Below are positions 22,456 to 38,713 of a stretch of DNA of 64,000 bases, piece after piece. The stretch lies in IMG/VR virus record IMGVR_UViG_3300044623_001231, one strand, 5' to 3'. Source of the DNA: a virus. Lineage: Duplodnaviria; Heunggongvirae; Uroviricota; Caudoviricetes. The position numbers and the translations under genes are program-made. The notes beneath the pieces were generated by a model, which did not search any database, was not told the DNA's origin, and saw nothing but the letters and a program-made list of their open reading frames with translations. Within the stretch, counting starts at the first letter, position 1. Every line of letters begins with the position of its first letter.

Positions 22456-22541
22456 GCGGAAAGAGTAGGATTCGAACCCACGATACCTTTCAGTATGCCG
22501 GTTTTCAAGACCGGTGCAATCGACCAACTCTGCCATCTTTC
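22456..22541 (-). tRNA. tRNA-Ser(TGA), class II
   Basis: hand-folded: anticodon stem CCGGT/ACCGG, loop CTTGAAA, long variable arm, T-loop GGTTCGAATCC. Confidence 0.8.
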
Positions 22542-22548
22542 CTCTTTT

Positions 22549-22620
22549 GTAGTCCCACCGGGAATCGAACCCGACTTTTCAGGATGAAAACCTGATGACC
22601 TAACCGATAGTCGATAGGAC
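22549..22620 (-). tRNA. tRNA-Glu(TTC)
   Basis: anticodon stem TCAGG/CCTGA, loop TTTTCAT; acceptor with 2 GU pairs. Confidence 0.75.
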
Positions 22621-22760
22621 CATATAAATGTGAGCCAAACTTATGTACTTAGTGGGTGTACTCCGTTTATACTACTCTCACATTCAAATCAGTAGTGTGA
22701 TGTTAATGGTTGAAAGATATTTACCTTCCTTTCGGCCTACCATCGTGGCCCATGCGTTTG

Positions 22761-22836
22761 TGGAGCGAATAGCAGGAATCGAACCTGCATCTCCAACTTG
22801 GAAGGATGGAGTAATAAGCCATTATACGATATTCGC
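22761..22836 (-). tRNA. tRNA-Gly(TCC), CCA encoded
   Basis: acceptor GCGAATA/TATTCGC, loop CTTCCAA. Confidence 0.75.
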
Positions 22837-23791
22837 TTATATACGATGAGAATACTCGTTTTAATGAACCAGCTTTATAAGGGTTATTGGTTGCCTTAAT
22901 TTCCACTTCCTTTTGAGAAGTACCAATTCAATGTGGGTAAGTAATGTCCTACCACTCATAAAGTTACAAACTACTCTCTTTGTAGTCCACCTCTTCGAAT
23001 CTGCCGACCCGATTAACACCTCGCGATGCTAGAAGTTTTTCGAAAGAATCACATTTCCCTTGAGAGGATTTGTGGCAGGGAACAGCTCCCTACTATGTAC
23101 ACACCTTTCGTCTGCAACTGGTAACCTCTTTCTCTAGTTTGTTTTTTGATTTTGCGTCAATAGGCAAATTGAGTTTTGGTTTGTAGATAAATTCAAGTAG
23201 TGGATTACCACTAGCTCCGCCCCATTTTGAAGAACGGAATACTATACTACTCGATACGTTATCTCTAACGTCATACTTTAAGATTACTTCAGTACCCACT
23301 CTTTGGTGAGAGGTAGGTAAGGATGATAACAACACCACTTGTACTTCATCATACCTTTCGGTTTTAAGTAACCTTTAATATTGAATCACGCAATGATAAG
23401 GAGAGATTAAGTCCTCACTTCTTGCATTAATTCTATGGGTTATTTTTATTGGTGTTCCCACCTCAACTGAAGTATCTACAATACCCCAGTCATCATTCCA
23501 TTTCGCTACGGAGTTACCCTCACTACATTCAGGAACAATGATATCCCACTTGCCTACTCAAGCTCCATCCGAAGATGAAACCGCAAACCCCTCTAAACCA
23601 AAGAGATTCACTTTATCCTACTTTCGTAGTTTATTTAACGACCATAGGCGGCCGTTATACACTATGTAGAACAAGTCTACTATGTGCAATATTTTCAATA
23701 CTTTCAAAGAACTAATTTTCTTTTTCAAAGATACGAATAATTTTTCAATTATCCTAATCTTTTTTTAATTATTTTTCAATAATTTATTTAG

Positions 23792-23864
23792 TTGCGGGAG
23801 AGGGAATCGAACCCCCGACCTCAAGGTTATGAGCCTTGCGAGCTACCGCTGCTACTATCCCGCT
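23792..23864 (-). tRNA. tRNA-Met(CAT), initiator-like
   Basis: loop CTCATAA; 3' end CCCGCAAC with a 1:72 mismatch and A73, as in bacterial tRNA-fMet. Confidence 0.7.
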
Positions 23865-23966
23865 ATATATGTTTAAGAACTTAATTTTCAACTTCTATGT
23901 ATATAAGTATATACAAATATACCAAAACGTAAAAAAAATCGAAAAATAATTTAATTTTTTTATTGT

Positions 23967-24040
23967 GGACCAGAATGGATTCGAACCATTGACCTACGCA
24001 TTATGAGTGCGGTGCTCTAACCAACTGAGCTACAAGTCCA
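23967..24040 (-). tRNA. tRNA-Met(CAT), elongator-like (or Ile2)
   Basis: GTAGCTCAGTTGGTTAGAGCAC ... CTCATAA; resembles elongator Met. Confidence 0.7.
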
Positions 24041-24174
24041 AAACGAGAGAGGGTTCGGGTCTTTCAAGGTTTCTGATTAAGTGCAATGAGTGACGTCTTT
24101 CTACTATAAACCTTTTTTCGAAAATTAATACACTCTACCTCTTAATTACAGCTTCACTCCCTCTCTATTTTTTA

Positions 24175-24360
24175 CTACTTTGCGTCTGCTTCAGTAGTAA
24201 TTTCTGCTACAGTTGAATCAGTTGCGATTACAGCTGATGAATCCGTTGCTACTGCAGTTGAGTCTGTTGTTGACGTTTCTGTGTTTGATTGTTTGTTTCC
24301 ACAAGATGCCATAACTACCGTTACTGCTACTACTGTTAAAATTGCCATTACTTTTTTCAT
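24175..24360 (-). CDS. small lipoprotein (lipobox VMASC) with an S/T/A/D-rich tail
   Basis: MKKVMAILTVVAVTVVMASC signal; internal start of the tracked ORF. Confidence 0.45.
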   Translation of the reverse strand: MKKVMAILTVVAVTVVMASCGNKQSNTETSTTDSTAVATDSSAVIATDSTVAEITTEADAK

Positions 24361-24418
24361 AACTTTTGTTTTAATTGTTTTAAATTGATAAATAAACATA
24401 GGAACCTACCTATATTTG

Positions 24419-24513
24419 TAATCATAATTGGATTCGAACCAATTCCAGCTTTACAATAAAGAACCTTTCGATTCAACCTTTGTGAGGTGCCGCCAACCAA
24501 TGGCCTTATGATT
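24419..24513 (-). ncRNA. atypical tRNA-like element (95 nt)
   Basis: perfect 7-8-bp acceptor (AATCATA(A)) and perfect T-arm ATTGG-TTCGAAT-CCAAT, but no canonical anticodon arm could be folded. Confidence 0.45.
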
Positions 24514-24581
24514 ATTTAAATGAACTATACAAATATACGAAATGTTTTTCACAATTCCAAATATTTTTTCATTTATTTTTG

Positions 24582-24655
24582 TGGAGGATATCGGAGTCGA
24601 ACCGATGACCCCCTGCGTGCAAGGCAGGTGCTCTAGCCAGCTGAGCTAATCCCCC
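24582..24655 (-). tRNA. tRNA-Ala(TGC)
   Basis: G3:U70 identity pair, loop CTTGCAC. Confidence 0.8.
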
Positions 24656-24752
24656 ATTAATCACATCGTACCGGCATTCTGGTTCTCGCTAACAGAAATT
24701 CCATCTCATTTAACCCAGTCTGTGCGATGTGGGTACCGGAGGATGTGATTTG

Positions 24753-24831
24753 TAGTCAGAGCCGGATTCGAACCGGATAAGCAACCACTTTATTGGATTC
24801 GGGAACCGTCCCTCATTACGCCCATCTGACC
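24753..24831 (-). ncRNA. atypical tRNA-like element (79 nt) with an extra GGGACGGTTCCC hairpin
   Basis: acceptor GGTCAGA/TCTGACT and T-loop TTCGAAT present; D/anticodon region non-canonical. Confidence 0.4.
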
Positions 24832-24906
24832 ATTTTAAACATCCAGTCTGACCTTCCAGACAGTACAAGTCGGTATTAATTTCACGTGCCGTTTTGTAGT
24901 GAATGT

Positions 24907-25149
24907 TTAATATCCTATTTGTTCTTTAATCTCCCATTGCTTTTCAATAGAAATTCTTTCAATTCTCTCTACTGGTACAAACCCATCCAATCCCTTATCT
25001 TTAACATCTTCAAAATGTTCGATAGTATCTAAACGAAATCCGAACTTATATCTGATGTATTGGAACTTTTCACCATCCCAATATGCAGTATGGTTATTTC
25101 TGCAAAATCCATTGTACCAACCTTCTTTCATTTCAATTTTTGGTATCAT
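24907..25149 (-). CDS. hypothetical protein embedded in the tRNA array
   Basis: ORF track, 80 aa. Confidence 0.45.
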   Translation of the reverse strand: MIPKIEMKEGWYNGFCRNNHTAYWDGEKFQYIRYKFGFRLDTIEHFEDVKDKGLDGFVPVERIERISIEKQWEIKEQIGY

Positions 25150-25163
25150 ACTTTTTGTTTTAG

Positions 25164-25237
25164 TGAACCCATCAGGAATCGAACCTGAAACCTACACATT
25201 AGAAGTGTGTTGCTCTATCCAATTGAGCTATGGGTCC
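25164..25237 (-). tRNA. tRNA-Arg(TCT)
   Basis: anticodon stem ACACA/TGTGT, loop CTTCTAA. Confidence 0.8.
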
Positions 25238-25451
25238 AAATTCACACTCTATTTTATCCAACTACAAGTGTGGTGGTTGTCCCCATAGCGGGCCCATTGG
25301 GCCTTTGATTGGGTTAGGAATAAACCAATTAAACTCTTTCGGAGCAGATGGTTAATCTGGATAGAGCCTTTCCCTATCAGAAGTCCCATATGGCCATCAC
25401 ACCACTTCTCATCATATTGGACATACTATCCGTTGTATGTTACGGAACGTG

Positions 25452-25523
25452 CGGTCTCACCGGGAATCGAACCCGGCATACCGCCGTGACAGGGCGGCGT
25501 TATAGCCGATTAACTATGGGACC
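25452..25523 (-). tRNA. tRNA-Asp(GTC)
   Basis: anticodon stem CCGCC/GGCGG, loop CTGTCAC, G73. Confidence 0.8.
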
Positions 25524-25609
25524 AAAAGTGATAGGTGACCCTCCTATCGTGAAATGATATATCATTTCTTTTCTTTATAGAATCCGAAGATACTGTAGGA
25601 ACATTTTTG

Positions 25610-25682
25610 AGCCTCCGGTCGGGCTCGAACCAACCACCTGCTGATTACAAATCAGCTGCTCTACCAAATGAGCTACGGAGGC
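25610..25682 (-). tRNA. tRNA-Thr(TGT)
   Basis: perfect acceptor GCCTCCG, loop TTTGTAA. Confidence 0.8.
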
Positions 25683-25843
25683 AAAATTAGGAAAGCTACC
25701 TGATATCTTTACAGCCGAATTAGGTACGGATTTCTACATTTAGAATGTTCCTCAAATTCAAACCCCTTTTATGTCCGTACTATGTGGAGGATAAAAAACC
25801 ACATTAGTTGATAAAAAATGAATTCTTCACCTCTTTCCTATTG

Positions 25844-25929
25844 TACCGATGGGCGGACTCGAACCGCCACGAGCATTACTACCCAAGGGATTTTAAGTCC
25901 CTCGTGTCTACCATTTCACCACATCGGCA
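25844..25929 (-). tRNA. tRNA-Leu(TAA), class II
   Basis: anticodon stem AGGGA/TCCCT, loop CTTAAAA, long variable arm. Confidence 0.8.
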
Positions 25930-26045
25930 TTTTAGATTTTCAACATGTCAAAGAACAAAACTGTCTCTCTTTTACTATGTAAAGATACAACATAATTTTG
26001 AATTATACAAGCTTTTTTAAAAACTTTTATAATTTTTGTGGAGGT

Positions 26046-26070
26046 GGCGAGAGTCGAACTCGCGTCCAAA
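26046..26070 (-). other. orphan tRNA 3' half (T-arm GCGAG-TTCGACT-CTCGC plus acceptor CACCTCC-A) with no matching 5' half within 100 nt
   Basis: shares the CACCUCCA 3' end with tRNA-Phe; pseudo-tRNA, split tRNA or recombination scar. Confidence 0.4.
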
Positions 26071-26488
26071 TACGGATTTAATAAACATCATTCACAAGCT
26101 TAGTACATTTTTCTTAATGTACAAAATAGATAAAGATTTATACATTCATTATCATTAATGTTTCCAACTCGATTTCGGGTTCAGTTGGGTTCCACCTGAG
26201 TTCACATTCTATTTTAAGTCCCACGATGTGTGCGGGAGGGATTATGCTGCTACAGCGTAATCGGCACCAACGAAAGACATAGCATCTTCGAAGGTCATTG
26301 TAGATAATTCTACTGCGTTTATTGTTCGATAGGTATTTACGGATTTCCATCTAACCCGGCTTGCAACTTACCAATTCATCGTACCTGTCAAAACCAGGCA
26401 CCCCCATAAATCAAAGAACTTATCTTTTTTGATACTTCAAATATACAAAATCTTTTTGGTATTTCCAAATTTAATTTCAATTATTTTG

Positions 26489-26562
26489 TGACCCCGAATG
26501 GATTCGAACCATTGACTCCCTCATTAAAAGTGAGGTGCTCTAACCAACTGAGCTACGAGGTC
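26489..26562 (-). tRNA. tRNA-Lys(TTT)
   Basis: anticodon stem CCTCA/TGAGG, loop CTTTTAA. Confidence 0.8.
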
Positions 26563-26568
26563 ATTCTG

Positions 26569-26638
26569 AGGTTAAGGTTGGAATCGAACCAACTCCGTAG
26601 ATTTTGCAGACCTACCGGCCTCCAAGACCATCCTAACC
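26569..26638 (-). tRNA. tRNA-Cys(GCA)
   Basis: loop CTGCAAA, short D-loop, 70 nt. Confidence 0.7.
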
Positions 26639-26642
26639 ATTC

Positions 26643-27095
26643 CTATCTACAAGTGTAATCTGCTGCCCTTGTTGCGATTTGCATATCAGGTTTAAGATTA
26701 ACTTCATATCCTAATGAGTTTGCCCAACCCTTTGTAGATTGTACTAACTTAGAAGAGTAATGCTTTTCATTTAAGTTGTAATCTAAATCAATCTGAATAG
26801 TTACACCTAAGTTACTCCTTAACCATTCAGCCACTTCAATAGAATATTCAGTTTCTTTCCACAATCTTGTCCACTTATCTAAAATCTTATCTACTTTTAG
26901 TTTGTGATTAATATAGTGTACACCTGTATTACCATACCTATACGCAATTACAATTGAATATGATGTACAATCTGATAAGTTTTGAGAATCACACCCAATA
27001 TGAATATCCGCATGTGGACATTCTTTTAATATATCAATCGTATGTTGTACGATATCTACCACTTCCCCATTTACTTTTCTAAAAACTTTTACCAT
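26643..27095 (-). CDS. hypothetical protein (possible RNase H-like fold) inside the tRNA array
   Basis: 150-aa ORF flanked by tRNA-Cys and tRNA-Phe. Confidence 0.5.
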   Translation of the reverse strand: MVKVFRKVNGEVVDIVQHTIDILKECPHADIHIGCDSQNLSDCTSYSIVIAYRYGNTGVHYINHKLKVDKILDKWTRLWKETEYSIEVAEWLRSNLGVTIQIDLDYNLNEKHYSSKLVQSTKGWANSLGYEVNLKPDMQIATRAADYTCR

Positions 27096-27121
27096 TACTA
27101 TTAATATTAATTATTAAATTG

Positions 27122-27194
27122 TGGAGGTGAGTGGAATCGAACCACTTCCTCTGGATTTTCAGTCCAGCGCTTCTACCAAGTTAGCTTCACCTCC
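27122..27194 (-). tRNA. tRNA-Phe(GAA)
   Basis: perfect acceptor GGAGGTG/CACCTCC, loop CTGAAAA. Confidence 0.85.
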
Positions 27195-27199
27195 TTTTG

Positions 27200-27270
27200 C
27201 ACGGGTAGAAAGATTCGAACTTCCATCTAAGCTTTTGGAGAGCCGTATGCTACCATTGCACCATACCCGT
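27200..27270 (-). tRNA. tRNA-Trp(CCA)
   Basis: loop CTCCAAA, G73. Confidence 0.7.
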
Positions 27271-27276
27271 ATTTTG

Positions 27277-27348
27277 TACACTTAGAGAGATTCGAACTCC
27301 CATTATCCGGTTCGTAGCCGGAGGTTCTATCCGTTGAACTATAAGTGC
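27277..27348 (-). tRNA. tRNA-Arg(ACG)
   Basis: anticodon stem TCCGG/CCGGA, loop CTACGAA. Confidence 0.8.
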
Positions 27349-27352
27349 ATTG

Positions 27353-27434
27353 TACCCAAGGAGAGACTCGAACTCTCAAGCCTTTCGGCCACGGTTTCTA
27401 AGACCGCTGTGTCTACCAATTCCACCACTCGGGC
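27353..27434 (-). tRNA. tRNA-Leu(TAG), class II
   Basis: loop CTTAGAA, variable arm GGCCGAAAGGC. Confidence 0.75.
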
Positions 27435-27441
27435 ATTGTTG

Positions 27442-27515
27442 GGTGATTAATGGGATTCGAACCCATCCTATCAGAATCACAATCTGACGTGCTAACCGCT
27501 AACACTATAAACACC
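27442..27515 (-). tRNA. tRNA-His(GTG) with encoded G-1:C73
   Basis: anticodon stem TCAGA/TCTGA, loop TTGTGAT; extra 5' G pairs with C73. Confidence 0.8.
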
Positions 27516-27572
27516 ATGTTGTGTATAATATATTATCCATTTACCCCATATATCTGAGTTTTATATAATATA

Positions 27573-27643
27573 TTGTACATTGTTGTGTGTATGAGGTTCG
27601 AACTCATTTGGTCATCCTTATGAGAGATAACTCTTTTCCACTA
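27573..27643 (-). tRNA. third CAT-anticodon tRNA (Ile2/Met candidate) with a weak D-arm
   Basis: loop CTCATAA in a GU-rich stem; T-arm ATGAG-TTCGAAC-CTCAT. Confidence 0.45.
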
Positions 27644-27840
27644 AGCCACACAATTTAAAAGAAGTATAACCAGAATTTTGTGTAAACCTATCATTTGTCT
27701 TTTTGCCCCAACCTTGTCCGAATTGCTCACCTTCATAGACTATTTTGGGTTGCATCCTCAGTAGTAAAACGAATTTCTTCTCCTACTTTAAGCAATGATG
27801 TTCTGAGTTTCCTCTCCGTAGAGCGATAGGAACTTCTTTG

Positions 27841-27928
27841 CGGAGAGTATAGGATTCGAACCTATGGAACCCTTACGAGTTCAACACCTTAGCAGGGTGC
27901 CGCTTTAAACCAACTCAGCCAACTATCC
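27841..27928 (-). tRNA. tRNA-Ser(GCT), class II
   Basis: loop CTGCTAA, long variable arm. Confidence 0.75.
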
Positions 27929-27933
27929 AATTG

Positions 27934-28007
27934 TTGGTAATATAGGAATCGAACCTATAACCTTTCGCGTATCAGGCGAATGCTCTAACCAATTGAGCTA
28001 ATTACCA
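27934..28007 (-). tRNA. tRNA-Ile(GAT)
   Basis: anticodon stem TTCGC/GCGAA, loop CTGATAC. Confidence 0.8.
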
Positions 28008-28085
28008 ATAAGTTGCAGGATATCGCTTAACCTGCGGTGTTGATATCATTACACACCTTTGATGTTACCACCAGCGATTTTTTTG

Positions 28086-28169
28086 TGGGAGCAGAAGGAT
28101 TCGAACCTACTACCTATGCGGGTTACCAGATTTACAGTCTGGCGCCTAACCAATTCGTGCGTTACTCCC
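28086..28169 (-). tRNA. tRNA-Tyr(GTA), class II
   Basis: anticodon stem CCAGA/TCTGG, loop CTGTAAA. Confidence 0.8.
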
Positions 28170-28275
28170 AATGGCGTTCCATATTACTCACATCTGATAA
28201 CCATATTGGGTTACCCACTTAATCTTACAACAGCTTTAAACTGAGAGATTGTAAGAATGTGTATGGAACATTTTG

Positions 28276-28349
28276 TAGAAGATATAGGATTCGAACCTAT
28301 GACCCTTTGGATGTAAACCAAATGCTCTAACCAACTGAGCTAATCTTCT
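28276..28349 (-). tRNA. tRNA-Val(TAC)
   Basis: anticodon stem TTTGG/CCAAA, loop TTTACAT. Confidence 0.8.
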
Positions 28350-28354
28350 ATTTG

Positions 28355-28430
28355 TCTAGATGGTAGGATTCGAACCTACGTGCTCTCGCGTCCAAGGCGA
28401 GCGAGAAAAACCTGACTCCTCTACATCTAG
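28355..28430 (-). tRNA. tRNA-Pro(TGG)
   Basis: anticodon stem CTCGC/GCGAG, loop CTTGGAC, 11-nt D-loop. Confidence 0.75.
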
Positions 28431-28436
28431 TTATTG

Positions 28437-28507
28437 TTATCCCTCGAGGACTCGAACCTCGACTGCCTGAATCAAAGTCAGGTGTCCTGCCATTAGACCA
28501 AAGGATA
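28437..28507 (-). tRNA. tRNA-Gln(TTG)
   Basis: anticodon stem CCTGA/TCAGG, loop CTTTGAT. Confidence 0.8.
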
Positions 28508-28544
28508 ATTTGTGTTACCAATATTTCAAAGAACTATACTTTTG

Positions 28545-28616
28545 CGGGGAGGGAGAATTTCGAAATCTCGACCTGATGATTAACAGTCATCTGCTCTTCC
28601 TCTGAGCTACCACCCC
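28545..28616 (-). tRNA. tRNA-Asn(GTT)
   Basis: anticodon stem GATGA/TCATC, loop CTGTTAA. Confidence 0.75.

Positions 28617-37105: not shown

Positions 37106-38713
<1,608 letters not shown>

What the first reader, a model, noticed from the sequence alone, without database searches (positions are those of the whole stretch)
24419..27643. Non-canonical tRNA-like elements embedded among the canonical tRNAs
Four elements have textbook T-arms (GGTTCGAATCC) and well-paired acceptor stems but no canonical anticodon or D arms. (a) 24419-24513 is 95 nt with a perfect 8-bp acceptor and has the size of tRNA-Sec. (b) 24753-24831 is 79 nt with an extra GGGACGGUUCCC hairpin and a TTCCCGAATCC pseudo-T-loop. 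(c) 26046-26070 is an orphan 3' half whose CACCUCCA end is identical to tRNA-Phe. (d) 27573-27643 is a CAT tRNA with a degenerate D-arm. They could be decoys for host anticodon nucleases, processing signals for RNase P/Z, split or intron-containing tRNAs, or decaying pseudogenes.
Basis: seen in the sequence. Interest (0 to 1): 0.7.

Follow-up and report, generated by a model that had tools for sequence, protein, structure and literature searches.

The report
Phage tRNA look-alikes without anticodons
Within a large phage's cluster of tRNA genes, two conserved RNA genes keep the upper half of a tRNA but have lost the anticodon, a third is an oddly built methionine-type tRNA, and the fourth "element" is just the end of a tmRNA gene; so the phage appears to make tRNA mimics whose job is still unknown.

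Summary
All four elements exist, on the minus strand, inside a 6-kb island of 25 tRNAs, a tmRNA and a GOLLD RNA.

- **(c)** is not an orphan. It is the 3' end of a full tmRNA (26036-26405; Rfam 115 bits).
- **(d)** (27583-27652) is a conserved tRNA with an invariant CUCAUAA anticodon loop and an unusual build: 3-bp D stem, 7-bp anticodon stem, 3-nt variable loop. Seven of its base pairs show compensatory changes.
- **(a)** (24419-24513) belongs to a family of 31 distinct sequences in uncultured phages. 99.3% of cells are paired and 10 pairs show compensatory changes. It looks derived from tRNA-Ser but has only a 3-bp anticodon-stem remnant, a variable 6-7-nt loop with C33, and an extra hairpin.
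- **(b)** (24753-24831) belongs to a 6-sequence family that looks derived from tRNA-Leu. A near-invariant 25-nt motif replaces the D and anticodon arms.

Both (a) and (b) have the N73-CAA trailer that follows 22 of the island's 26 tRNA/tmRNA genes. They are not tRNA-Sec and not decaying pseudogenes, and an intron model is not conserved. They lack the anticodon loop that anticodon nucleases cut.

I read (a) and (b) as non-decoding tRNA mimics matured like tRNAs. Their function is untested; a decoy for proteins that recognise tRNA shape is my leading guess. Neither is in Rfam, and neither matched any GenBank phage record.

The parts
24419..24513 (-). Element (a): 95-nt anticodon-less tRNA-like RNA that looks derived from tRNA-Ser (class II)
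   Evidence: Covariance model R1 scores it 113.9 bits, against 30 bits or less for ordinary tRNAs. The family has 38 copies and 31 distinct sequences, with 99.3% of cells paired and 10 pairs showing compensatory changes. Its best match among the window's tRNAs is tRNA-Ser(gct).
24492..24504 (-). (a) D arm: GCCA-UUGGU-UGGC
   Evidence: The outer D-stem pair takes the forms UA, GC, AU and CG across the family. The loop keeps GG.
24476..24488 (-). (a) remnant of the anticodon arm: ACC-UCACAAA-GGU
   Evidence: The stem is an invariant 3 bp. The loop varies in sequence and length: UCCCCAA in 27 copies, UCACAAA in 5, and six other forms of 6-7 nt. Position 33 is C.
24461..24474 (-). (a) variable-arm hairpin: GAAUC-GAAA-GGUUC
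   Evidence: It aligns with the variable arm of the window's tRNA-Ser(gct). Stem pairing is kept while length varies from 14 to 22 nt and one pair covaries.
24450..24460 (-). (a) extra hairpin (C)UUUA-UUG-UAAA(G), between the variable arm and the T arm
   Evidence: It has no counterpart in tRNA-Ser. 94.6% of cells are paired, and the following linker is near-invariant: AAAGC in all 31, with the remaining CUGRA positions varying in a few.
24427..24443 (-). (a) T arm: AUUGG-UUCGAAU-CCAAU
   Evidence: Three of the five stem pairs covary once members found with a D-arm pattern are included.
24416..24418 (-). CAA trailer after the discriminator A24419 of (a)
   Evidence: The same N73-CAA trailer follows 22 of the window's 26 tRNA/tmRNA genes.
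24753..24831 (-). Element (b): 79-nt tRNA-like RNA that looks derived from tRNA-Leu, without an anticodon loop
   Evidence: The family has six distinct sequences: window (identical to L063), L011, L061, L001, L002 and L004. Acceptor, P1 and T stems are 100% paired, with 5 pairs showing compensatory changes. Its best match among the window's tRNAs is tRNA-Leu(taa). In L016 a genuine tRNA-Leu(taa) occupies the same position.
24795..24819 (-). (b) near-invariant motif GUAAUGAGGGACGGUUCCCGAAUCC, which includes hairpin P1 (24801-24812)
   Evidence: The motif is conserved in all six family members, although their acceptor and T stems differ and three of them carry a longer insert of 37 to 59 nt.
   Evidence: ARAGORN calls a tmRNA with tag peptide AVELSTMTFEDAMSFVGADYAVAA*. 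Rfam RF00023 scores 115.2 bits. The 5' GGGGGUG pairs with the 3' CACCUCC and gives G3.U70.
27583..27652 (-). Element (d): 70-nt non-canonical tRNA with anticodon CAU at 27620-27622
   Evidence: Seven distinct sequences are 100% paired, with 7 pairs showing compensatory changes. The CUCAUAA loop is invariant. A further homologue lies in the 642-kb uncultured phage LR756502.1.
27611..27631 (-). (d) anticodon arm with a 7-bp stem: GUUAUCU-CUCAUAA-GGAUGAC
   Evidence: Three of the seven pairs show compensatory changes, and two U.G pairs are invariant.
27633..27645 (-). (d) reduced D arm: CUU-AGUGGAA-AAG (3-bp stem)
   Evidence: It is near-invariant: 12 of 13 positions are identical in all homologues including LR756502.1, and the one varying position is a D-loop U/A.

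Best explanation
The island is transcribed on the minus strand. It carries genuine tRNAs, a tmRNA, and several RNA genes that use the tRNA fold only in part.

Elements (a) and (b) are old duplicates of class II tRNA genes: the best matches are tRNA-Ser for (a) and tRNA-Leu(UAA) for (b). Both have been remodelled. They keep what the tRNA maturation machinery and shape-reading proteins recognise: a 7-bp acceptor stem, a T arm with a UUCGAAU loop, for (a) a D loop with GG, and the same N73-CAA trailer as the real tRNAs. The anticodon stem-loop has been replaced by short, conserved hairpins. They therefore cannot read codons.

Inferred steps:
1. They are cut out of the island transcript by RNase P and the 3' processing enzymes, and receive CCA, like their neighbours.
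2. They accumulate as stable RNAs of about 79-95 nt.
3. They act as tRNA mimics that bind or titrate a protein recognising the tRNA body (elbow, acceptor or variable arm). Candidates are a host tRNA-directed defence nuclease or toxin, or a tRNA-processing enzyme.

Element (d) is a working decoder with anticodon CAU (Met or Ile2). Its 3-bp D stem, single linker nucleotide (A) and 7-bp anticodon stem stack to 11 layers, one more than the canonical 4 + 1 + 5. Element (c) is simply the tmRNA.

Shown here: the sequences, the folds, conservation with compensatory changes, the resemblance to tRNA-Ser and tRNA-Leu, the loss of an anticodon, and the shared trailer. Inferred: expression, processing, and the mimic or decoy function.
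For: (a):
- 31 distinct sequences; 99.3% of 805 cells paired; 10 pairs with changes on both sides; 0 of 500 shuffles reach the observed covariation score; versions with partners slid by 1-3 columns pair only 25-50%.
- Model R1 separates members (90-126 bits) from every ordinary tRNA (30 bits or less).
- The anticodon-loop position is the most variable part, with indels and C33. ARAGORN at default settings of 31.
- It always lies on the tRNA strand inside tRNA arrays, in some loci 0-2 nt from neighbouring tRNAs.
- No conserved neighbouring ORF was found.

(b):
- Six distinct sequences, 100% paired, 5 pairs with compensatory changes, and a near-invariant 25-nt internal motif.

Origin and processing:
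- Best window matches are tRNA-Ser(gct) for (a) and tRNA-Leu(taa) for (b); in L016 a real tRNA-Leu(taa) sits where (b) sits.
- The N73-CAA trailer follows 22 of the 26 tRNA/tmRNA genes and also (a), (b) and (d).

(d):
- 100% paired, 7 pairs with compensatory changes, invariant CUCAUAA loop; also present in LR756502.1.

(c):
- tmRNA by two methods.

Plausibility of a decoy that does not involve the anticodon:
- Septu and retron-Eco7 cleave the variable loop of class II tRNA-Tyr, and phage tRNA copies counteract them (PMC13096335).
Against: - There are no expression, end-mapping or binding data for any of these RNAs, so every functional step is inference.
- The sequences are related by descent, so counts of compensatory cells are not independent events.
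- Members of (a) were retrieved with exact patterns in the T arm or D arm. This inflates the apparent invariance of those parts.
- (b) rests on six sequences in two subtypes.
- Most (a) members carry the loop UCCCCAA. It could be read as a 7-nt loop with anticodon CCC, A37 and A38, so decoding is not strictly excluded for that lineage.
- No partner protein was identified.
- The host is unknown.
Confidence: 0.6

Rival explanations
1. Processing punctuation only. (a) and (b) are kept purely as RNase P / RNase Z recognition modules that cut the long island transcript into its tRNAs, other small RNAs and short mRNAs. The excised RNA itself has no function.
For: They keep exactly the parts that RNase P and RNase Z need: acceptor, T arm and the CAA trailer. 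The island also holds non-tRNA structured spacers and small ORFs that need releasing. In the window, (a) sits 20 nt upstream of a small lipoprotein-like ORF.
Against: Canonical tRNAs already flank most units at 4-6-nt spacing, and (a) directly abuts tRNAs in several relatives, so extra punctuation is redundant. The non-tRNA parts are the best-conserved parts: the 25-nt motif of (b), and in (a) the extra hairpin, its linker and the GCACC...GGUUG segment. The downstream ORF of the window is absent from all 47 other (a) loci.
Confidence: 0.15
2. Unusual but decoding tRNAs. (a) would be a class II tRNA read with anticodon CCC (ACA in the window), perhaps charged independently of its anticodon by SerRS, causing recoding or mistranslation as proposed for allo-tRNAs. 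(b) would be a similarly exotic decoder.
For: 27 of 38 copies of (a) have a 7-nt loop, UCCCCAA, with A37 and A38. SerRS and LeuRS do not read the anticodon (established knowledge). Allo-tRNAs with odd anticodons and class II bodies exist, including in phages (PMC5389517).
Against: - Position 33 is C, not U.
- The stem is 3 bp, flanked by invariant C.U and G.G mismatches.
- Loop length changes between 6 and 7 nt, and the would-be anticodon differs between clades (CCC, ACA, UCC).
- The discriminator is A, G or U rather than the G73 of the window's tRNA-Ser genes.
- (b) has a 4-nt loop where the anticodon loop was.
- Rfam tRNA gives 16 bits for (a) and nothing for (b).
Confidence: 0.08
3. Selfish or recombination-driven tRNA-derived repeats. 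The elements spread and shuffle within tRNA arrays because of their shared acceptor and T-arm sequences, without benefit to the phage.
For: Flanks of (a) differ completely between loci. Many non-canonical elements share one 'chassis', AGUCAGG...ACAGGUUCGAAUCCUGUCCUGACU, with at least 20 unrelated middle parts and up to five per locus. About half of the (a) members carry that chassis and the rest another. A second copy of the 5' acceptor strand lies about 22 nt upstream of (b) and of several relatives.
Against: Compensatory changes preserve every helix, and the internal parts stay conserved across chassis types. This indicates selection on the RNA itself. There is only one copy of (a) per locus.
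Confidence: 0.08
4. Decaying tRNA pseudogenes left by duplication within the array.
For: Both look like damaged copies of tRNA-Ser and tRNA-Leu, and standard tRNA finders reject them.
Against: 99.3% and 100% of stem cells remain paired, with 10 and 5 pairs showing compensatory changes. (a) is 83-90% identical across loci whose flanks cannot be aligned.
Confidence: 0.04
5. Intron-containing, split, or selenocysteine tRNAs.
For: With introns allowed, ARAGORN models (a) as tRNA-Ser(cga) with a 13-nt intron. (a) is 95 nt long, with an apparent 8-bp acceptor.
Against: The intron model is found in 1 of 31 family members, and the other relaxed calls disagree with each other. Bacterial tRNA introns are group I introns of hundreds of nt (established knowledge). 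There is no UCA anticodon, no 6-bp D stem and no Rfam tRNA-Sec hit at E up to 10. The 8th pair is not conserved.
Confidence: 0.02

Closest known systems
Stable RNAs 'species 1 and 2' (RNA C and RNA D) of the phage T4 tRNA gene cluster (my own knowledge; not checked here)
   Same: They are small stable non-tRNA RNAs encoded among phage tRNA genes, co-transcribed and matured with them, and their function is still unknown.
   Different: No sequence relationship was tested. The T4 RNAs are not known to be class II tRNA derivatives lacking only the anticodon arm. The present families were found only in uncultured phages.
tRNA-Other of Bacillus cereus, a pseudo-tRNA or tRNA-like small RNA (mentioned in PMC5389517)
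   Same: It is a tRNA-derived RNA with a non-standard anticodon region, thought to act outside normal decoding.
   Different: It is chromosomal and a class I tRNA derivative that retains an anticodon-like loop and is aminoacylated. (a) and (b) are phage-borne class II derivatives, and their charging is unknown.
Allo-tRNAs and other tRNAs with novel cloverleaves (8/4 and 9/3) (PMC5389517)
   Same: They have class II, Ser-like bodies, also occur in phage tRNA clusters and polycistrons, carry unusual anticodon regions, and have been proposed to be regulatory RNAs.
   Different: Allo-tRNAs have 8/4 or 9/3 acceptor/T configurations and a proper 7-nt anticodon loop. (a) is 7/5 with a 3-bp stem remnant.
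Bacterial Y RNA-like YrlA (Rfam RF02553; PMC4201824)
   Same: It is a non-coding RNA containing a tRNA-like domain with T-arm and D-arm mimicry, also found in phages.
   Different: YrlA has a long Ro-binding helix instead of a free acceptor end. Rfam gives no YrlA hit on (a) or (b).
tRNA-Pyl and mitochondrial tRNA-Ser(UCN) architecture (my own knowledge), as a comparison for (d)
   Same: They have an extended anticodon stem, a 3-nt variable loop and a shortened connector and D region, yet are fully functional decoders.
   Different: (d) has a 7-bp rather than 6-bp anticodon stem, a 3-bp D stem, and canonical GG and UUCGAAC loops. Its anticodon is CAU.
Phage-encoded tmRNA (Rfam RF00023), for (c)
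   Same: It gives a full-length match, has a tag reading frame and carries the G3.U70 alanine identity pair.
   Different: Nothing unusual was seen apart from a long predicted tag of 24 residues.

Membership tests
Canonical decoding tRNA (Rfam RF00005) | Score at or above the family's gathering threshold of 29 bits | tested here: not met
   (a) gives a 16-bit partial hit, (b) gives no hit at E up to 10, and (d) gives 24.7 bits.
Canonical decoding tRNA (Rfam RF00005) | 7-bp acceptor stem and T arm with a T-loop consensus | tested here: met
   (a) is 7/5 and (b) is 7/4 plus a mismatch. (d) has 6 Watson-Crick pairs plus a 7:66 mismatch, with a 5-bp T stem. All are supported by covariation.
Canonical decoding tRNA (Rfam RF00005) | 5-bp anticodon stem closing a 7-nt loop with U33, a conserved anticodon and a purine at 37 | tested here: not met
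   (a) has a 3-bp stem, C33, and a loop of 6-7 nt that varies in sequence. (b) has a 4-nt loop. (d) meets the loop criteria (invariant CUCAUAA) but has a 7-bp stem.
tRNA-Sec (Rfam RF01852) | UCA anticodon, 8/5 (bacterial) acceptor/T configuration, 6-bp D stem | tested here: not met
   There is no UCA in register in most members, and the D stem is 4 bp. The -1:73 '8th pair' is U-A in most members, C.A or A.A in others, and U.G or U.U where the discriminator varies. No Rfam hit was found at E up to 10.
tmRNA (Rfam RF00023), element (c) | Full-length covariance-model match above the gathering score, a tag reading frame, and a tRNA-Ala-like acceptor with G3.U70 | tested here: met
   115.2 bits against 47, covering model positions 1-374. 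ARAGORN predicts a tag peptide. GGGGGUG pairs with CACCUCC.
Allo-tRNA (8/4 or 9/3 cloverleaf) | 12-bp acceptor/T branch split 8/4 or 9/3 | tested here: not met
   The covariation-supported structure of (a) is 7/5. An 8/4 reading using A9-U65 cannot be excluded by covariation, because those columns are near-invariant (the T-stem partner varies in 4 of 31), but nothing requires it.
Intron-containing tRNA | The same exon junction and anticodon recovered across homologues | tested here: not met
   The ARAGORN intron model Ser(cga)i(30,13) appears in 1 of 31 members; others give Ile(tat), His(atg) or nothing.
Decaying pseudogene | Stem-disrupting substitutions accumulate, and conservation is no higher than in the flanks | tested here: not met
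   Cells are 99.3%, 100% and 100% paired with compensatory changes. The flanks of (a) cannot be aligned.
tRNA mimic matured by RNase P / RNase Z / CCA-adding enzyme | Discrete 5' and 3' ends at +1 and N73, with CCA added after transcription | not testable with these tools
   Only indirect evidence is available: the shared N73-CAA trailer and placement within tRNA arrays.
Decoy for tRNA-targeting defence systems | Binds or is cleaved by a host nuclease or toxin and rescues infection | not testable with these tools
   Precedent exists only for full phage tRNAs countering Septu and retron-Eco7 (PMC13096335).

The most novel reading that the evidence does not exclude
(a) and (b) are the local representatives of a large, undescribed superfamily of 'tRNA-scaffolded' small RNAs in uncultured phage contigs of up to ~320 kb. 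A constant tRNA upper half carries interchangeable, family-specific cargo domains in place of the anticodon and variable arms. This upper half is often the same chassis: AGUCAGG-UGGCGGAAUUGGUAGACGC ... ACAGGUUCGAAUCCUGU-CCUGACU-A. Up to five different cargoes occur per locus. The scaffold would give RNase P / RNase Z maturation, CCA addition and tRNA-like stability, and possibly anticodon-independent charging by LeuRS or SerRS. The cargo would target distinct host factors, for example tRNA-directed immune nucleases or toxins.
Probability: 0.2. Interest if true: 0.85.

Novelty: new variant of a known kind. Interest (0 to 1): 0.6.

Why it matters
Phage tRNA clusters are usually explained by codon supply or by replacing tRNAs that host defences destroy. 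Here, part of such a cluster is occupied by conserved RNAs that keep the tRNA shape but cannot decode. This points to a second use of the tRNA fold by phages: mimicry of tRNA towards processing enzymes, synthetases or immune nucleases.

The families are absent from Rfam, and (a) and (b) matched no GenBank phage record. Standard tRNA finders either miss them or, in relatives, mislabel them with improbable anticodons. Phage tRNA inventories and codon-usage arguments based on those calls are therefore affected.

The alignments and the covariance model for (a) made here give concrete candidates for RNA-seq, in-vitro processing and charging tests, and anti-defence assays.

Tried and rejected
- **tRNA-Sec reading of (a):** rejected.
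- **ARAGORN intron and relaxed models:** inconsistent across the family.
- **A conserved protein partner next to (a):** tblastn of seven island ORFs against 72 loci gave no co-occurrence. The lipoprotein-like ORF just downstream of (a) is unique to the window.
- **Promoter evidence:** sigma-70-like sites upstream of (a) are no more frequent than in shuffles (3 against 3.2). A Bacteroidota-type TTG-N19-TAnnTTTG pattern is not enriched (3 against 1.9). I therefore make no claim about an own promoter or about the host.
- **(a) in cellular genomes:** 0 hits for its T-arm pattern in GTDB species genomes.
- **(a) and (b) in 50,697 GenBank phages:** no match. The 6.3-kb island matched only through ordinary tRNAs and GOLLD.
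- **Metagenome scan for (b):** 13 hits, of which only 2 were true homologues; the rest were chance matches of the 19-mer.
- **Literature searches** for tRNA-like or decoy RNAs in phage tRNA arrays: no description of these families.
- **CACCUCC in the (a) hairpin of most members** equals the anti-Shine-Dalgarno core. I treat this as a post-hoc coincidence: it is partly inherited from the tRNA-Ser anticodon stem and is not kept in the window's own copy (CACCUCA).
- **Thermodynamic z-scores** of the single sequences are unremarkable: (a) -1.2, (b) 0.0, (d) -0.9. The case rests on comparative data.

Full report
**Setting**

ARAGORN finds 25 tRNA genes and one tmRNA gene between 22456 and 28616, all on the minus strand. 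Rfam confirms 24 tRNAs above threshold and a tmRNA at 26036-26405 (115.2 bits against a gathering score of 47). It also finds a GOLLD RNA at 22843-23254 (257 bits).

Elsewhere the window encodes phage-type proteins, including a GroEL and a DNA methyltransferase. Related contigs in IMG/VR reach 270-322 kb. The window therefore comes from a large phage, probably a jumbo phage to judge from its relatives, and the finding lies in its tRNA/ncRNA island. The host is unknown.

**Element (c)**

26046-26070 is the T arm and 3' acceptor strand of the tmRNA. Its partner strand GGGGGUG lies at 26399-26405, about 360 nt upstream on the RNA, and pairs with CACCUCC to give the G3.U70 alanine identity pair. 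The shared CACCUCCA end with tRNA-Phe is real but is only acceptor-stem similarity. This part of the finding is explained and ordinary.

**Element (d)**

The true span is 27583-27652. ARAGORN calls it tRNA-Met(CAU), while Rfam tRNA gives 24.7 bits, below the threshold of 29.

Seven IMG/VR relatives carry it, usually just upstream of tRNA-His or tRNA-Ser, and ARAGORN misses it in every one of them. I proposed the following structure:
- six Watson-Crick acceptor pairs plus a non-Watson-Crick 7:66 pair;
- a 3-bp D stem, CUU/AAG, with the loop AGUGGAA;
- a 7-bp anticodon stem;
- the loop CUCAUAA;
- a 3-nt variable loop;
- a 5-bp T stem.

On this structure 100% of 147 cells are paired and 7 pairs show changes on both sides. 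No shuffle reaches the observed covariation score, and versions with slid partners pair only 35-49%. The anticodon loop is invariant.

A further homologue lies in the published 642-kb uncultured phage LR756502.1. It has new compensatory acceptor changes and the same D arm and loop, though its anticodon stem has two mismatches.

The trailer register (A73 followed by CAA, as in the other genes) fixes the acceptor register. A 3-bp D stem, a single linker nucleotide (A) and a 7-bp anticodon stem give 11 stacked layers, one more than the canonical 4 + 1 + 5. I therefore read (d) as a working decoder with an architecture close in length to the canonical one. It is one of three CAU tRNAs in the window. 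I could not tell whether it accepts Met or, after lysidine modification, Ile.

**Element (a)**

The coordinates 24419-24513 are exact. The RNA reads:

AAUCAUA-AG-GCCA-UUGGU-UGGC-G-GC-ACC-UCACAAA-GGU-U-GAAUC-GAAA-GGUUC-UUUA-UUG-UAAA-G-CUGGA-AUUGG-UUCGAAU-CCAAU-UAUGAUU-A.

Three pattern scans of IMG/VR retrieved 47 loci. The scans used a D-arm 20-mer, a T-arm 26-mer, and a D-arm/anticodon-stem pattern. A covariance model built from 16 sequences scores family members at 90-126 bits and every ordinary tRNA at 30 bits or less. There is one copy per locus.

On the 31 distinct sequences:
- 99.3% of 805 cells are paired;
- 10 pairs show changes on both sides;
- the outer D-stem pair occurs as UA, GC, AU and CG;
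- the T stem covaries once members are no longer selected by their T arm;
- 0 of 500 shuffles reach the observed covariation score, and slid versions pair 25-50%.

The best match among the window's own tRNAs is tRNA-Ser(gct). The D arm, the 5' anticodon strand GCACC and the variable-arm hairpin all align to it. What has changed is the decoding end:
- only ACC/GGU still pairs;
- C.U and G.G mismatches are invariant;
- the loop differs between clades in sequence and length: UCCCCAA in 27 copies, UCACAAA in 5 (the window's type), and UCCCCAG, UCCCCA, CCUCAA, CCCCCAA, UCCCAA and UCUCCAA once each;
- position 33 is C.

An extra hairpin, CUUUA-NNN-UAAAG, and a largely conserved linker (AAAGC invariant, CUGRA nearly so) sit between the variable arm and the T arm.

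ARAGORN at default settings calls none of the 31. With introns allowed it proposes Ser(cga) for the window copy only, and unrelated identities for a few others. There is no tRNA-Sec signature.

The element always lies on the tRNA strand of an array, in some loci 0-2 nt from neighbouring tRNAs, and its flanks are otherwise unrelated. No ORF of the window's island co-occurs with it. The lipoprotein-like ORF 20 nt downstream in the window is unique to the window.

**Element (b)**

The coordinates 24753-24831 are exact. The best window match is tRNA-Leu(taa), and in relative L016 a genuine tRNA-Leu(taa) follows the same 80-aa ORF at the same place.

Compared with tRNA-Leu, the 3' half of the D arm is missing. 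The anticodon loop CUUAAAA is replaced so that GGGA now pairs with a new UCCC across a CGGU loop.

Homologues are:
- an identical metagenome contig (L063);
- L011 and L061;
- three longer variants (L001, L002, L004), which have a different acceptor (AGUCGAC/GUCGACU) and T stem (CGGG/CCCG) and a longer insert of 37 to 59 nt, but the same motif GUAAUGNGGGANGGU(N)CCCRAAYCC.

Acceptor, P1 and T stems are 100% paired in the six sequences, and 5 pairs show changes on both sides. The sample is small, but the combination of covarying stems with a near-invariant internal motif is not what a decaying gene shows.

**Common features and the wider picture**

Twenty-two of the window's 26 tRNA/tmRNA genes, and also (a), (b) and (d), are followed by N73-CAA. 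This suggests one common 3' maturation route.

In the related loci, a simple scan for a canonical T arm plus a perfect 7-bp acceptor found 85 distinct sequences that ARAGORN does not call in the same register, against 579 hits that coincide with its calls. Some of the 85 are shifted-register hits that overlap genuine tRNAs. Many of them share one upper half, AGUCAGG-UGGCGGAAU(U)GGUAGACGC ... ACAGGUUCGAAUCCUGU-CCUGACU-A, with at least 20 unrelated middle parts of 25-80 nt. Up to five occur per locus.

About half of the (a) family uses this same acceptor and T arm, while the window's clade uses another. The acceptor of (b), GGUCAGA/UCUGACU, is a close variant. The lower half of (a) is thus conserved across different upper halves. 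This argues that both halves are under selection, and that the modules recombine.

**Interpretation**

What is shown:
- three conserved, structured RNA gene families of tRNA origin; two of them lack an anticodon and one has a remodelled but intact decoding arm;
- one mis-read tmRNA end.

What is inferred for (a) and (b):
- they are transcribed with the island;
- they are released by RNase P and 3' processing, and receive CCA;
- they function as non-decoding tRNA mimics.

My leading mechanistic guess is titration of a protein that reads the tRNA body rather than the anticodon. Defence systems that cut the variable loop of class II tRNA-Tyr, and are countered by phage tRNA copies, provide a precedent for tRNA-body targeting (PMC13096335). 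Toxins that attack the acceptor end of tRNAs are another possibility (my own knowledge).

The alternatives, with evidence in the structured fields, are a pure processing-punctuation role, exotic decoding (anticodon CCC with C33), selfish array repeats, pseudogenes, and intron or Sec models.

**Comparison with known families**

The nearest known cases are:
- the unexplained stable RNAs C and D in the T4 tRNA cluster (my own knowledge);
- the pseudo-tRNA tRNA-Other of B. cereus, and allo-tRNAs (PMC5389517);
- YrlA.

None shares the defining anatomy, and Rfam 15 has no family matching (a) or (b). A survey of IMG/VR structured RNAs mentions tRNA-like candidates in general terms only (PMC10690425).

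(a) and (b) have no match in 50,697 GenBank phage records. The T-arm pattern of (a) is absent from GTDB genomes.

**Verdict**

Of the offered interpretations, 'conserved odd arms' holds. 'Sec', 'orphan half', 'intron' and 'pseudogene' do not. 'Decoy' survives only in a form that does not involve anticodon nucleases.

Novelty: new families and an unusual variant of the known theme of tRNA-derived non-decoding RNAs. Interest: moderate to high (0.6), limited by the complete lack of functional data.

Noticed in passing
window 22843-23254 (-), plus 23255-23790 (-): A full GOLLD RNA (Rfam RF02032, 257 bits) sits inside the tRNA island. The 536 nt just upstream on the RNA strand are strongly structured (z = -6.7) and conserved in 9 related loci. 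They are probably the variable 5' half of GOLLD.
   Followed up: partly
window 28170-28274 (-): The 105-nt spacer between tRNA-Tyr and tRNA-Val is a conserved structured RNA. It has 33 predicted pairs, 9 with compensatory changes in 8 sequences, and occurs in 10 related loci. It has no Rfam match.
   Followed up: partly
window 24656-24751 (-): The 96-nt spacer between (b) and tRNA-Ala folds into a long hairpin-like structure (28 pairs). It recurs at 88% identity in L001, L002 and L004, where it is wedged between tRNA-Arg and tRNA-Leu with 4-nt gaps. It therefore looks like an independent RNA module rather than a spacer.
   Followed up: partly
window 24040-24174 (-); 27515-27581 (-); 25524-25608 (-): Further inter-tRNA segments are conserved in 8, 5 and 3 related loci respectively at 72-96% identity. 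Their nature was not examined.
   Followed up: no
window, all tRNA/tmRNA 3' ends from 22456 to 28616: 22 of 26 genes are followed by the discriminator plus CAA, rather than an encoded CCA or a random trailer. This is an unusually uniform 3' trailer and hints at a specific maturation signal.
   Followed up: partly
related loci, e.g. L065, L045, L079, L027, L009; window (b) 24753-24831: A superfamily of tRNA-like elements of 73-128 nt shares a constant upper half (AGUCAGG-UGGCGGAAUUGGUAGACGC ... ACAGGUUCGAAUCCUGU-CCUGACU-A) with at least 20 unrelated middle parts, up to five per locus. ARAGORN misses them or labels them with improbable anticodons such as Tyr(ata), Thr(agt), Ile(aat) and Phe(aaa).
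   Followed up: partly
window 24846-24853 (-), about 15-22 nt upstream of (b); also L023-L025, L045, L031: A second copy of the 5' acceptor strand (GGUCAGAC) lies about 22 nt upstream of the element, in the window and in several unrelated chassis elements. It might form an alternative pairing with the 3' acceptor strand, or be a recombination scar. It remains unexplained.
   Followed up: no
window 24907-25149 (-): An 80-aa ORF with no Pfam match is embedded in the tRNA arrays of 25 related IMG/VR contigs at 67-88% identity, although the surrounding tRNA order is heavily rearranged.
   Followed up: partly
window 26643-27095 (-): A 150-aa ORF between tRNA-Cys and tRNA-Phe matches Pfam RNaseH_like PF04308 (E = 2e-17). 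It is a possible nuclease gene inside the tRNA island and occurs in 4 of the 25 loci that carry the 80-aa ORF.
   Followed up: no
relatives, e.g. L031, L045 and L026, downstream of (a): Class II-like tRNAs with a CAU anticodon and a long variable arm occur there, for example GCGAUGC...GGUCUCAUGAGCC...GUAUUGGUAGAUAUACCCAACAG.... This is another non-standard tRNA type in these arrays.
   Followed up: no
window 37106-38707 (-): A phage-encoded GroEL chaperonin (PHROG 5725, E = 5e-168).
   Followed up: no
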